DNA from: Lingula anatina
Lineage: Eukaryota; Animalia; Brachiopoda
Direction of reading: 5' to 3'
Assembly: GCA_051362555.1 (NCBI GenBank)
Contig: CM120648.1
Coordinates: 17,294,587-17,358,586, forward strand
DNA length: 64,000 nt
Below are positions 25,200 through 29,052 of this stretch, one piece after another. The first letter of the stretch is position 1. Each line of letters starts with the position of its first letter. The translations under genes and the position numbers were made by a program. Below the pieces are notes generated by a model. It made no database searches, was not told where the DNA came from, and saw nothing but the letters and a program-made list of their open reading frames with translations.

Positions 25200-25430
25200 T
25201 ACATAGGACATGCGTTACTAAAATGTTAGTAACGCACGTCCCATTAGGACGTGCATTACTATACGTAGGACTTGCATTACTTGGGAGCCTTCGTCCTACG
25301 GACATTGAATCCTAGTAACGTATGTCCTAGGACTTCCATTTCTAGCAATGCATTTCCTAGGACTTGCATTCCCAGGACTTAGTGTCCGGACGGACTTGCG
25401 TTATTAGGACGTGCTATCCTGCCACACCGG
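25200..25430. repeat. Degenerate ~15-bp repeat array (TAGGACGTGCATTAC-like, both orientations); probable DNA-transposon end
   Basis: About 10 diverged AGGAC[GT]TGCRTT units ending in CCTGCCACACCGG. An analogous GGACTT...CCTGTTACACC fragment lies at 24130-24197. Confidence 0.6.
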
Positions 25431-26114
25431 CCCCGGAATCAGGAAGCCGCGAAAATGAATATATCGTGGGTCCAGGAAAATTACCTTTTGCATAAAAACG
25501 GTATACTTAAGAATAAATAATCGATTTGAGAACAATTTATTGCTGGTCATTATCATAAAATCTGCGTCGTCAATAATATGTCCTTTCTCTTCACTAAAAA
25601 GTCTTTAAGATTATGCTTAGGCGGGGATAGTCATTGATCTCTATGTTTTACCAGCTACGCCACAGATCATGGATGTCATACTGCCCTTTCATCAACAAGT
25701 CCTATCTTCTATCAGCAAGAAGTTTTTTTTTTTTTAAGTAACCTCGGCACTATTGCTTTACCTAAACATACATTTTGTTTTTATGCCCCCTCCCTTTTTG
25801 GGCCCCTGCCTATCAAGACTGTTTGTATGGCCATATACATACCACGGGGCTGATATCTAAACAAAAGGATTGCAGGGACTGATATCATTGTTACTGCCCA
25901 ACCAACCGCATGGTTAAGTTCACACAAACAATGCTGTTAACTCGACCCGCTATCAAAAAGTGCTCGCTTTCGCTCGCACTTTATGATAGCGTGTCTCATG
26001 GTGACTCGGTAAAATCCTCGAAAAAAATCTCGCTTTTTTTCTCGAATTTTACATTAATAGTCACTGAAAACAGAAAAACAAGAAGGAAACAACGTCAGGC
26101 ATTTAATTTATATT

Positions 26115-28134
26115 TTAATGAAATTGGAAATTGCAATTCTGAAATACAACCGGCTGATTTGTTAAATCGATAAGTCTACTCAAAGAAGAATCTGTTTGTG
26201 TTACACTTTCATCACTGACGTCTGTCTGAGTGCGTATTTTCGGCGGCGTCGGACCATCATCACTCCCGTCAAGGATTCTGCTGATGTGTTGTTCCTGTTG
26301 TTCAGACGGCCGTTTACATGAACGAACGCCTAGAAACATATCCGAAAGAAACGAAATAATACTAAAGGATAATATACTGGTAAAATATGAGCCCCTTTCC
26401 CTTATAAATGAGTAAATGAAAATAACATCACAATTGATTGTAACCACAGTGCATGTTGTAAAATCTGTGCATAAACTCATTAGTACTATAAAATAAAATA
26501 ATACTTAAAAAGACATGGGGAGTGGGGATCTTCGTGGCAAAATGAATTTGCCTGGAGTCTAGGCCTACAGCAGTTGAGAGACAATTAAGAATTAATCTAA
26601 ATTATTGTGAAATTTTAGATTAATACAAAACAGTTACACGCACTTAAATTTTGCTGTCTATGTATGGTATTGATGATATTTACCTTCGACTGAACGATGC
26701 CCTGTTTTGGTCATAATTAGCTGCTCATCGACACCTCTCCGAAAGAGACGCGTCGCAGTAGTTGCCCGCAGAGAGTGGTTGGTGTAGAATCCTTTCAGGC
26801 CAGCCTTTTCACACGTTTCTCGGGTGAAGTTTGACAGGGTATTCACACCAATCGGCTGTCGACTAAACCATACGTTTTCCCGCCATTTCTGCAAAGGCTG
26901 GAGGTAAAAAGAATCGTCTCTGTTATCTTTGGGGGATAATTCCATATATTTCTTGTAAATCCTTACATGGCATCGCTACGGGCAGTCTGCGTTAGCAAAA
27001 TGGGTCACTTGCTTTGGTACTAATTTGCGATGTTTTAGGCCACCTTGACACGTTTTAGAGACGTCCTCTGAATATTTCAAATAAGCAATTTCACCTTCAG
27101 GTTCGTGGAGCGTAATTTGAGGTGATTTATATCGCAGTCGTCGATGTTCCTGTCCACCTCGTAATCCGAATTTTTTGCCATTCAAATAGTGCAGTGTACG
27201 CACGAGTACTTTGGGATTATAGTCGCCCAGCGCTTTCGATGACCACAGCTTGCTTTCATCCTCCAAAGAAATTGCTTGGGCCTTTTTGGTGTTACATCCA
27301 AGGCCAGTATGAGAAAGACGTTTCATCTCAGAATCTAATACTTGTCGGAGACCCACAAATTGATCAGAATTTAATAAATCAATCCCTCGCTTCGACTCAG
27401 TGCGAATGTAACTCTGCAGTCCCATCACAAGGGACAGGAGTGTCCTTGGAGGATATTCCGTACCGTTCTCTTTTCTCACCTCCAGTATAAATTTGGATAT
27501 CCAGTACTGAAGTTCCTCGTCAGATAGATTTGTCAGTGGTTTCTTTATTTTATTCCATTTATTAATGGCAATGTCGTTTCCTTGATAACCGTGCAACCGT
27601 GTGTTGTTTCGCGCCACTGCCCACTTATTCCATGTATTAAGTGCCCACATGTTACGACGCAACGTGTTCTTAGGTAAGCTTGCTTTTGAGCGCAACTCCA
27701 TTTCCTCATCTGTTACTGGGATAGCGAACCTTTTACTGCCATTCCCCTCCTAAAAACAGGATAATATCATAAGAAAACGCATTTTGTCAAATATGTCAAT
27801 TTTCACGTTTTTCGAAAGCAATGAATCTCATCCGTTCAAATGTCAAGGTACAAATGCATTTTGTCGTATAATTATGTAGTGGAAATACATATGGAAAAGA
27901 TAAACATAAATGAAAAATGTGTATTTTTGTTATACGCACCTTCATCTCAGCCGAGAAAGCCTGCTGCTCCTGCTGCTGCTTCGCGTCTAAATAACACATT
28001 TCTGCATTTTGACTTGCGCTTATAAGTTCGTCGTCCGAAATGTCAGAAAATTGTTGCTCAGTTTCATAATGAGATTTCTCTGCCGTTTGACTTGCGCTCA
28101 CGAGTTCGTCGTCCGATACATCAGAAAACAGCAT
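26115..28134 (-). pseudogene. Crypton tyrosine recombinase (DUF3504 / ZMYM-QRICH1-KIAA1958-like), 3 exons, ~491 codons, inactivated
   Basis: Exons 28134-27940, 27749-26684 and 26329-26115 with GT-AG introns in consistent phases (0, 1). Motifs: RFAIPVTDEE, FILEVRKENGTEYPPRTL, FGLRGGQEHR (R), NHSLRAT (HxxR), TGHRS, then GVRSCKR where Y is expected, and C-terminal FQNCNFQF. In-frame TAG at 26978-26976 (ADCP*RCHV). Confidence 0.9.
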
Positions 28135-28179
28135 TTCTGCAATGTCGCTGTCAGCTTTGCCGAAAAATGAATGAGAGTG

Positions 28180-28232
28180 ACTGCCACGTGCGGGAGATGG
28201 GCAGGAAACTGCCACGTGCGGGAGATGGGCAG
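28180..28232. repeat. Exact 25-bp tandem duplication (28-bp period) upstream of the recombinase ATG
   Basis: ACTGCCACGTGCGGGAGATGGGCAG at 28180-28204 and 28208-28232; each copy contains a CACGTG E-box. Confidence 0.9.
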
Positions 28233-28815
28233 CCAACTTCTCACAGAAAACCACTGACCCATATCTCTGCCAAAGCACACGCAACCACAAACCATTCACA
28301 CAAATGAAAATAATTGGACGGTGACCACAATTAGACAGAAACTATCGGCGTAAGCGCGGGAAAAGTCCATTCTTTGATATCACCCCATGCGCGGTGATAT
28401 CAGCGTGTTCTATTCAAAGTTAGGGGGTTTGGGTGAGGAACATGCACGATTTCCCTTAGTATGTATGACAAATAATGCACTGTTACCCCCTCGCCCGATA
28501 TCCACGATAGCATGCCTCGCTGACGCTCGGCTTGCTATCGTGGATATCGGGCTCGTGGACAGTGCATTATTTACTACATAGTACCCCAGGCATTTGAAAT
28601 GGCAAAGACTACTCAAAACTAAAACCGACAAGGTGTGAACCACTTCGAACTCTATGACGTCACAGGTGAGGTCGAACGTAATCTCAGTGTAAAACAAAAT
28701 GAAAATAAAAAAAATCTTAAGTTATCTTAATAGGAACGCTTCGGGTAGGTATATCAATAAAAGCGACTGAACTGGAATTGATTCAGTGGCTTTCCAGCCA
28801 TAACATCACGTCATA

Positions 28816-29052
28816 CAGTGGCGGGTTTAGATTTGTGGAAAAAACCACACTATTATATATTCCTCTCTAGAGATAAGAAGTTTGACTAGCTGAATCATAG
28901 TTCTAAACCGTACCAAAAGGCACCATTTGCTCTCCAAAACACCAAAAAAATTCAGGGCCCTTCGGCGGGCCCCGAACCCGACGCTAATAGTGGCCAGGTC
29001 TGTCATTAAAAAAAAACGACCACCCCTTCAAATAATCCTGGATCCAGCCCTG
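28816..29052 (+). mobile_element. Family B MITE (CAGTGGCGG...GATCCAGCCCTG ends)
   Basis: Imperfect TIRs. Internal homology to 23277-23560 and 59372-59430. Confidence 0.65.

What the first reader, a model, noticed from the sequence alone, without database searches (positions are those of the whole stretch)
25836..28580. Complete, intron-containing tyrosine-recombinase (Crypton-type) element with readable end architecture
Seen: one spliced recombinase gene with R / HxxR / GH motifs and no RT, bounded by TACATA direct repeats. The subterminal inverted repeat is asymmetric: it abuts the left TACATA but lies 16 bp inside the right one. Six GATATC boxes sit in the terminal regions (25852, 25881, 28376, 28396, 28497, 28543). 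Established: Cryptons are eukaryotic DNA transposons encoding only a tyrosine recombinase, with short terminal direct repeats, and are proposed to move via circles; DUF3504 host genes (ZMYM2-4, QRICH1, KIAA1958) derive from them. Inference: TACATA is the crossover core and the GATATC boxes are recombinase-binding arms, making this a compact animal site-specific recombination system whose mechanism, to my knowledge, is poorly characterised.
Basis: partly seen in the sequence, partly recalled or inferred. Interest (0 to 1): 0.75.

Follow-up and report, generated by a model that had tools for sequence, protein, structure and literature searches.

The report
Crypton transposon with self-pairing folded end
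This is a broken copy of a recently mobile animal Crypton jumping gene whose true ends, shown by an empty site in other sequenced samples, do not use the proposed six-base repeat but are predicted to fold into one long single-stranded DNA hairpin once joined, so its recombinase likely works the way bacterial integrons do.

Summary
The element is real, but not as first read. It is a 2,743-bp CryptonA transposon (25835-28577) with a three-exon tyrosine-recombinase gene on the minus strand. This copy is dead: a stop at codon 323, and Cys in place of catalytic Tyr425. A sibling protein (XP_013380784.1, Lingula anatina) is intact.

An empty allele in runs from two studies joins 25834 to 28578 with only ATA shared, so TACATA is not the crossover core. 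Other copies stop at these ends, and short deleted derivatives exist.

Its outer arm is complementary to the element's own 3' end, so joining the ends completes the stem. Six related family representatives from two other sources show the same design with different sequences: an 8-14-nt junction helix, a 2-nt bulge after the cut, sense-strand-only tandem G·A mismatches, and insertion after T-A-N without duplication.

Best model (about 0.6): the recombinase acts on a folded single strand, like integron attC. No circle or activity was observed. I found no such description in print; earlier AI notes in this scan propose the same idea.

The parts
25835..28577 (-). Whole CryptonA element, 2,743 bp; gene-sense 5' end at 28577, 3' end at 25835
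   Evidence: Empty-allele joint 25834->28578 skipping 2743 in X1 and X3; loose ends of other copies at 25835 and 28580; an X4 contig ends at 28577. That the shared triplet at the right side belongs to the target is inferred from related families.
28578..28580 (-). Target triplet (TAT on the gene strand), host-derived; matches the element's last three bases in this case
   Evidence: 'both = 3' at the joint; relatives insert after T-A-N with a variable third base
27940..28134 (-). Exon 1 (ATG to GT donor), acidic low-confidence N-terminus
   Evidence: identical to P0002 except one residue
27750..27939 (-). Intron 1, 190 nt, GT..AG
   Evidence: agrees with P0002. No RNA read spanned it.
26684..27749 (-). 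Exon 2: QRICH1-like domain and DUF3504 recombinase core with R262, K297, H390-x-x-R393, H416
26976..26978 (-). Premature TAG (codon 323), peculiar to this copy
   Evidence: every contig laid at 26978 reads a sense codon in X1, X3, X4, X5
26330..26683 (-). Intron 2, 354 nt, phase 1
   Evidence: agrees with P0002; the ORFs of P0003, P0005, P0007 and P0010 lose similarity at the same point, consistent with the same intron
26115..26329 (-). Exon 3, with the catalytic Tyr425 position (Cys in this copy, codon 26318-26316) and the stop
   Evidence: Tyr in 98 of 112 aligned proteins; contigs of X1, X3, X4 read the Tyr codon
28470..28572 (-). Long imperfect 5' hairpin: outer 14-bp stem 28470-28483 with 28559-28572, inner 20-bp stem 28493-28512 with 28533-28552
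28517..28528 (-). Hairpin apex: tandem G·A/G·A mismatch around a GCGNNAGC DNA mini-hairpin, on the gene strand only
   Evidence: mini-hairpin motif per PMC13037366 abstract
28459..28467 (-). Internal complement of the predicted circle junction: pairs with 25835-25842 (3' terminus) plus 28577 (first base)
25835..25842 (-). 3' terminal sequence; predicted binding half-site, with the cut predicted just after it
   Evidence: boundary; role inferred
25944..25995 (-). Second, smaller hairpin with the same G·A and mini-hairpin apex; absent from the deleted derivative
   Evidence: the derivative joins 25884/25885 to about 28170
25852..25886 (.). Two GATATC boxes near the 3' end (25852, 25881); possible family-specific accessory sites
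   Evidence: function untested
28376..28401 (.). Two GATATC boxes (28376, 28396) forming a small palindrome inside the 5' end
   Evidence: function untested

Best explanation
This is a broken copy of a recently mobile CryptonA DNA transposon family whose intact members likely move by tyrosine-recombinase cutting of a folded single DNA strand rather than by exchange between two six-base repeats.

SHOWN: ends at 25835 and 28577/28580; an empty allele; several near-identical full copies and many deleted derivatives; an intact sibling protein with the full R-K-H-R-H-Y set; no true duplication; insertion after T-A-N in relatives.

PREDICTED FROM SEQUENCE: when the ends are joined, the gene-sense strand folds into a stem in which the last 8-12 nt of the element pair with an internal copy 110-190 nt inside the other end. 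After the cut come 1-2 paired bases and a 2-nt bulge. A tandem G·A mismatch sits about 50 nt from the cut, and a DNA mini-hairpin is at or near the apex.

INFERRED: the recombinase would bind that terminal helix as its half-site and cut the sense strand just after the terminal triplet. It would release a single-stranded circle and paste it after a T-A-N site by one strand exchange that host replication or repair then resolves, as for integron attC sites. This would let copy number rise and would explain why no terminal repeat was found in animal Cryptons.
For: 1. Empty allele in 2 of 3 DNA runs laid (X1 depth 22.6, X3 depth 54.1; two studies), with 3 shared letters. Record lengths (341 = 296+45; 332 = 290+42) leave no letters between.

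2. No strict homology is needed. A paralogous empty site for family F4 has target TAT while the element ends TAA. In 41 distinct 5' flanks, T is at -3 in 37 and A at -2 in 38, while -1 varies (A 14, T 18, C 9). F1a ends CAA but has T at -3 in 8 of 8. That is too little homology for a standard two-exchange reaction over a 6-8-bp spacer (PMC3212892 background).

3. The junction helix is 8-14 nt (Watson-Crick) in 7 of 7 representatives, against 4-8 nt when 3' ends are swapped between families with different termini. Null 0 of 2000 for five representatives, 7 of 2000 for the window, 95 of 2000 for F3 (12 nt with one G-T).

4. The F4 and F5 ends were suggested by the hairpin rule before copies were fetched. 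Five other F4 copies, an empty site and two other F5 copies then matched them.

5. A 2-nt excess after the cut appears in 7 of 7. Tandem GA·GA is on the sense strand in 7 of 7 and on the antisense strand in 0 of 7, at position 49-50 in 6 of 7.

6. GCGNAGC/GCGNNAGC motifs, a DNA-specific stable fold (PMC13037366 abstract), are at the hairpin in the window, F1b, F2, F3 and F4.

7. The geometry resembles attC: three conserved bases, unpaired spacer, extra-helical bases (PMC2727003 passages); one exchange with replicative resolution (PMC3458562 passages and start of abstract).

8. The model of the intact protein has pLDDT 82.9, with QRICH1 E 4e-12 and Cre Z 16.4.
Against: - No circle, single-stranded form or enzyme activity was observed. 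No direct end-to-end joint appeared among the listed joints (171 rows were not shown).
- The window's own junction helix is the shortest but one (9 nt). Against random host flanks it adds little energy: 21 of 300 folded as well.
- G-T versus A-C bias between strands was not significant (25 to 17, P 0.28), and whole-fold energies favoured either strand by family.
- The seven representatives hold only five different 3' termini and come from three sources.
- Blind searches in more distant DUF3504 loci were weak: 7 of 27 against 6 of 27 controls; a strict rule 0 of 20 against 1 of 20; a loose rule 6 of 20 against 1 of 20 at 10 nt or more.
- A cruciform extruded from a double-stranded circle would show the same sequence signals.
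- The protein model is closer to Cre (Z 16.4) than to the integron integrase (Z 12.5).
- Clean excisions are reported for CryptonF (PMC9977147 passages), a different group.
Confidence: 0.6

Rival explanations
1. Classical Crypton model on double-stranded DNA. The element excises as a double-stranded circle and integrates by two exchanges that tolerate a mismatched spacer (Tn916-like). The palindrome would be an accessory binding array or a cruciform.
For: This is the published model (PMC3212892), with support in CryptonF (PMC9977147 passages) and in Starships (bioRxiv 10.64898/2026.09.21.753150 abstract). The fold is closest to Cre. GATATC is shared by both ends in this family (null 0 of 300).
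Against: No variable carried-over bases appear at two empty sites. Strand-specific G·A tandems at a fixed distance, mini-hairpins and a fixed 2-nt bulge have no obvious role in plain duplex DNA.
Confidence: 0.2
2. The hairpin and internal complement restore or prime the ends of a single-stranded intermediate, as the DIRS internal complementary region or a phage single-strand origin does, while the recombinase itself acts on a duplex circle.
For: DIRS-1 has an internal region complementary to both termini that is essential after first-strand synthesis, and trinucleotide junctions (PMC7192593 passages). A section heading of PMC13037366 places mini-hairpins at phage ssDNA origins (outline only).
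Against: The internal copy lacks 2 nt of the junction in 7 of 7 representatives and keeps a stable G-T in F3, so it is not a faithful template. No RT was found, and DNA contigs cover the introns as deeply as the exons with no intron-skipping joint listed, which argues against an RNA step.
Confidence: 0.15
3. One reading: TACATA is a 6-bp crossover core duplicated at both ends, and the GATATC boxes are the recombinase arms.
For: TACATA is the only hexamer shared near both ends, and GATATC is enriched. Fungal and oomycete Cryptons have 5-6-bp repeats.
Against: The empty allele shares 3 letters and skips 2,743 bp, not the 2,739 that a TACATA core requires. Copies keep homology out to 25835. No relative has a hexamer repeat.
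Confidence: 0.03
4. A domesticated single-copy host gene, as the database name 'zinc finger MYM-type protein 2' suggests.
For: The name of XP_013380784.1; QRICH1 is the best structural and profile match.
Against: Empty allele, several insertion sites, deleted derivatives and an intact catalytic set in the sibling; no MYM zinc-finger domain among its listed Pfam domains.
Confidence: 0.01

Closest known systems
CryptonA DNA transposons of animals (Kojima and Jurka 2011, PMC3212892; read: abstract, parts 1-2 of 7 of the body, passages, rows of supplement 1) and fungal Glomhoppers (PMC13465315, passages)
   Same: A single DUF3504-type tyrosine recombinase with R-H-R-Y, no RT, no C-terminal GCR1_C domain, about 2-3 kb, and more abundant non-autonomous derivatives.
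   Different: That paper found no terminal repeats in animal Cryptons (all 8 CryptonA rows 'n.d.'), and Glomhopper boundaries were not resolved. Here the ends are fixed to the base, with an empty allele, a T-A-N target rule and a junction-completing hairpin.
CryptonF / CryptonS (fungi, oomycetes, Chlamydomonas; PMC3212892, PMC9977147 passages)
   Same: Recombinase-only DNA transposons; one terminus resembles the target; copy number rises.
   Different: They have 5-6-bp matching repeats. Here at most 2-3 bases match and the third is free.
Integron gene cassettes / attC, and CTX phage integration (PMC2727003, PMC3458562 passages)
   Same: Works like them in predicted substrate: a long imperfect hairpin, a very short conserved core, unpaired bases next to the cut, and strand asymmetry. 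That an attC site is completed on circularisation is recalled, not from a call.
   Different: A eukaryotic, self-encoded recombinase in the mobile unit; no attI platform or promoter; T-A-N targets genome-wide; G·A tandems and mini-hairpins rather than attC boxes; single-strand activity not shown.
DIRS retrotransposons (PMC7192593 passages)
   Same: A tyrosine recombinase, an internal region complementary to both termini, and a trinucleotide junction.
   Different: No gag, RT or RNase H; introns are kept; the complement is about 10 nt of the 3' end plus a long 5' hairpin, with a fixed 2-nt gap.
SE strand-biased circularising elements of Vibrio (PMC9345347 abstract and passages)
   Same: A tyrosine-recombinase element that circularises one strand and is copied out.
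   Different: Bacterial, four genes; no hairpin-completing junction in the passages read.

Membership tests
CryptonA | Encodes a DUF3504-type tyrosine recombinase as its only protein | tested here: met
   Pfam on 4 ORFs; one three-exon gene; fold
CryptonA | Catalytic R-H-R-Y retained in mobile members | tested here: met
   Met for the family: P0002 and the contigs carry Tyr425. This copy has Cys and a stop.
CryptonA | No RT and no GCR1_C C-terminal domain | tested here: met
   low-confidence unstructured tail
CryptonA | Multicopy, with defined ends and non-autonomous derivatives, in an animal | tested here: met
CryptonA | Groups with Repbase CryptonA recombinases in a tree | not testable with these tools
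   No Repbase or Dfam sequences are available; assignment rests on DUF3504 plus structure and host.
Crypton (original fungal definition) | 4-6-bp terminal direct repeats as recombination substrate | tested here: not met
   3 shared letters at the empty allele; none required in relatives. The published animal members lack this too.
Crypton (original fungal definition) | Circular intermediate | tested here: inconclusive
   No direct end-to-end joint among listed rows. A head-to-tail junction in L029 can also arise by insertion after another element's TAA end.
Domesticated DUF3504 genes (ZMYM2-4, QRICH1, KIAA1958, WOC) | Single-copy, fixed, catalytically degenerate, with added domains | tested here: not met
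   Empty allele, several copies, intact sibling
Integron cassette / attC system | Folded single-strand site with unpaired features and strand asymmetry | tested here: inconclusive
   Predicted fold and asymmetry in 7 of 7; no binding or cleavage data
Integron cassette / attC system | Conserved AAC/GTT core triplets of attC | tested here: not met
   Termini end in TAT, TAA or CAA and targets are T-A-N. It works like, but is not a member of, this family.
Integron cassette / attC system | IntI-specific I2 helix insertion | tested here: inconclusive
   The profile aligns to IntI4 only over the C-terminal 63 residues (E 9.7e-6, close to XerA 4.7e-5); the insertion region was not covered.
DIRS retrotransposons | gag, RT and RNase H with inverted LTRs | tested here: not met
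   The 2.7-kb element holds one gene.

The most novel reading that the evidence does not exclude
Animal CryptonA transposons are eukaryotic counterparts of integron cassettes. A one-protein tyrosine recombinase reads the shape of a folded single strand, completed only when the element's ends join, and inserts it after almost any T-A-N. This brachiopod family, with an intact natural enzyme, an empty allele and short cargo-free derivatives, would be a ready test system and a candidate single-strand DNA integration tool from an animal.
Probability: 0.55. Interest if true: 0.85.

Novelty: new variant of a known kind. Interest (0 to 1): 0.68.

Why it matters
How animal Cryptons move is open: their ends were reported as lacking repeats (PMC3212892), and functional assays are still called for (PMC13465315, passages). 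This locus supplies base-exact ends, an empty allele, a target rule and an intact natural enzyme, so the question becomes directly testable. If the folded-strand model holds, a bacterial integron-type reaction operates in animal genomes. It would also suggest that the human DUF3504 proteins (ZMYM2-4, QRICH1, KIAA1958) descend from enzymes that read DNA structure. It also shows that a protein filed as 'ZMYM2' in Lingula is a transposon recombinase. The mechanism is inferred, and the idea has already surfaced in other windows of this scan, which lowers the novelty of this one report.

Tried and rejected
- No whole genome is held for the window, so copies came from public runs.
- A self-BLAST of the window found no second copy.
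- A metagenome scan with the single protein found 0 relatives among 191 candidates. A viral scan with the alignment found 0 among 17.
- Rfam gave only a sub-threshold microRNA match to the hairpin (E 0.31), rejected as chance.
- No RNA holder was listed. One RNA run (6% read) gave 20 laid reads, 18 of them partial, almost none on exon 2 and no splice joint. Expression is neither shown nor excluded.
- Three other acceptors for intron 2 were dropped because only 26330 reproduces the sibling protein.
- A true 3-bp target duplication was considered. It was dropped because relatives vary at the third base. For this family itself the listed loose ends sit at 28580, 39 rows were not shown, and variation at 28578 could not be seen.
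- Blind hairpin/complement searches: one search was noisy and its null was contaminated by shared termini. One search did not separate real from control and missed three known positives. One search found 6 of 7 training loci and 0 of 20 new loci. Only the looser one search showed an excess.
- G-T/A-C strand bias was not significant. The match between target +1 and the element's first base was significant in one of three families.
- Shared subterminal 6-mers were significant in 2 of 7 representatives.
- The L029 head-to-tail junction and the X3 tandem were not counted as circles.
- Summed contig depth was used only as a rough guide to copy number.
- The Kojima review on transposon diversity (10.1266/ggs.18-00024) is not held.
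Full report
**1. Observation.** The listed motifs are at the stated positions. The gene lies on the minus strand in three exons: 28134-27940, 27749-26684 and 26329-26115, with GT..AG introns of 190 and 354 nt. Pfam gives QRICH1 (E 1e-16), DUF3504 (3e-16, 3e-9) and Phage_integrase (2e-9). The best of 555 homologues is XP_013380784.1 from Lingula anatina, named 'zinc finger MYM-type protein 2'. It is 491 aa and differs from the window's spliced product at 5 positions, two of them the premature stop at 323 and Cys for the catalytic Tyr425. The window is therefore most likely from Lingula or a very close relative (inference). In 112 aligned proteins R262 and K297 are invariant, H390, R393 and H416 occur in 110-111, and Y425 in 98. 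The AlphaFold model of the intact protein (pLDDT 82.9) matches QRICH1 and Cre best, with the integron integrase lower.

**2. Ends.** No genome was held, so public runs were laid on the region. Every contig laid at the stop position reads a sense codon in 4 of 4 DNA runs, and contigs at the Cys position read the Tyr codon in the 3 runs that covered it. The lesions therefore look peculiar to this copy, although contigs drop rare variants. At 96% likeness, a joint from 25834 to 28578 skipping 2,743 bp with 3 shared letters appears in X1 and X3, from two studies. X4 has a left-flank contig that stops at 25834 with 30 letters left over but is not listed at the joint. The empty site thus holds ATA once and no TACATA. 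Other copies diverge from the window at 25835 (2 contigs), 25831 (1), 28580 (5 contigs and 10 RNA reads) and 28581 (1), and one X4 contig ends at 28577; 39 loose-end rows were not shown. Loose ends at 25884/25885 and 28175 reveal an internally deleted derivative of roughly 460 bp. Interior depth is about 2-7 times that of flank contigs, and the right end is tens to over a hundred times higher; this is a rough guide only. Both flanks belong to one host repeat that the element interrupts (X5 joint 25830 to 28590).

The gene's 5' end (window right) is a ~110-nt imperfect hairpin (z -12.3). Its outer arm runs on into nine bases (28459-28467) complementary to the last eight bases of the element's other end plus its first base, so the stem is completed only when the ends are joined. 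Taken alone this is modest: 7 of 2000 in one null and 21 of 300 in another.

**4. Relatives.** A scan with the alignment gave 80 metagenome loci and 12 genome loci, and one genome (G001) gave 32 matches. Copy alignment fixed the ends of four multicopy families in one record set (F1a, F1b, F2, F3). Twenty-four copies had both exact termini; several others lacked an anchor and were left out. Two more families (F4, F5) were first suggested by the hairpin rule and then checked. Six of 20 loci fetched for F4 had both ends at the predicted bases (one is the query itself), and a paralogous empty site shows target TAT against element end TAA. Three of 20 loci fetched for F5 had both termini (one is the query). 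Of 41 distinct 5' flanks, 37 have T at -3 and 38 have A at -2, while -1 varies; the element's 3' end is fixed within a family. So insertion follows T-A-N without duplication, and the ATA match in the window is likely a case where target and terminus happen to agree.

In all 7 representatives the 3' terminus pairs with its own internal copy over 8-14 nt, at 112-189 nt from the 5' end. Swapping termini between families with different ends gives 4-8 nt, and the mirror arrangement gives 4-8 nt. All 7 have 1-2 paired bases and then a 2-nt excess after the junction. All 7 have tandem GA·GA mismatches on the sense strand and none on the antisense strand, at position 49-50 in six; this test was prompted by earlier AI notes seen. 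Five carry a GCGNAGC or GCGNNAGC motif, a DNA-specific stable mini-hairpin (PMC13037366, abstract and outline). The seven hold five different 3' termini from three sources, so they are not seven independent events. In 20 more distant or single-copy loci a strict rule found none (control 1) and a loose rule found 6 (control 1). The design is therefore shown for this clade and only hinted beyond it. No relative has GATATC at its 3' end.

**5. Mechanism.** Tyrosine recombinases normally need two 11-13-bp inverted arms around a 6-8-bp spacer (PMC3212892). The junction here has no such duplex symmetry and needs at most 2-3 matching bases. A folded single strand supplies an 8-12-bp helix ending at the cut, followed by a bulge. 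This resembles attC, where conservation is limited to 3 nt and unpaired features choose the strand (PMC2727003 passages), and where one exchange is resolved by replication (PMC3458562). I infer cutting of the sense strand after the terminal triplet, release of a single-stranded circle, and insertion after T-A-N; none of these steps was observed. The rivals are a duplex circle with the palindrome as an accessory array or cruciform (0.2), and a DIRS-like end-restoring or priming role (0.15; PMC7192593 passages).

**6. Literature.** Kojima and Jurka report no terminal repeats in animal Cryptons (supplement rows), and 'hairpin' and 'palindrom' do not occur in that text. The Glomhopper paper has no 'hairpin' or 'circular' and leaves boundaries open. 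A curation guide gives a short direct repeat as the only mark (PMC8969392 passages). Active CryptonF excises cleanly yet gains copies (PMC9977147 passages). Ten searches were run. Those that paired Crypton with hairpin, single-stranded, stem-loop, palindrome, integron/attC or Lingula listed no paper on this design, judged from listings and the passages named. Repbase Reports, Dfam notes, Goodwin 2003, subscription reviews and bioRxiv supplements were not seen and could hold an earlier mention. That Eulor5/6 repeats are Crypton-derived is in PMC5753468 (passages); that they are hairpins is recalled only. Eight earlier AI findings in this scan propose the same folded-strand idea for other genomes. 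I had reached the junction-complement reading before that call (note), and they are not independent support.

**7. Verdict.** Observation partly confirmed; interpretation partly supported. This is a CryptonA element whose end design departs from the published Crypton model. The added value of this locus is an autonomous family with an intact natural enzyme, an empty allele and derivatives. Interest 0.68.

Noticed in passing
Probably mis-binned animal host DNA; not checked.
   Followed up: partly
window 28580 joined to 25833 (run X3 contig): A right end followed by 33 other letters and then a left end, at single-locus depth: two neighbouring insertions, or a copy that carried flank.
   Followed up: no
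L029 6349-6400: One element's 3' end directly followed by a diverged 5' start; an element's TAA end is itself a good target, so stacks can form.
   Followed up: partly
window 25540-25834 and 28581-28710: The flanks belong to abundant host repeats; at least the parts next to the element are one repeat that it interrupts.
   Followed up: partly
window 25200-25420: A multicopy stretch of short tandem and inverted units with a 45-bp imperfect palindrome, likely another small mobile element.
   Followed up: no
window 28820-29030: A very high-copy repeat (the highest depth) with many length variants.
   Followed up: no
L087 and L092: Distant DUF3504 loci with 17-nt complements between the hairpin base and downstream DNA; L087's apparent ends do not follow T-A-N, perhaps a subfamily with another target.
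   Followed up: partly
XP_013380784.1 (P0002): Annotated as zinc finger MYM-type protein 2 but has no zinc-finger domain listed and is the transposon's recombinase.
   Followed up: yes
P0012: A 52%-identical recombinase with the catalytic motifs in a moray eel assembly, a possible intact vertebrate CryptonA.
   Followed up: no
window 27974-28128 and 28180-28235: A 78-bp tandem duplication encoding the acidic N-terminal repeat, and a 28-bp tandem upstream of the ATG.
   Followed up: no
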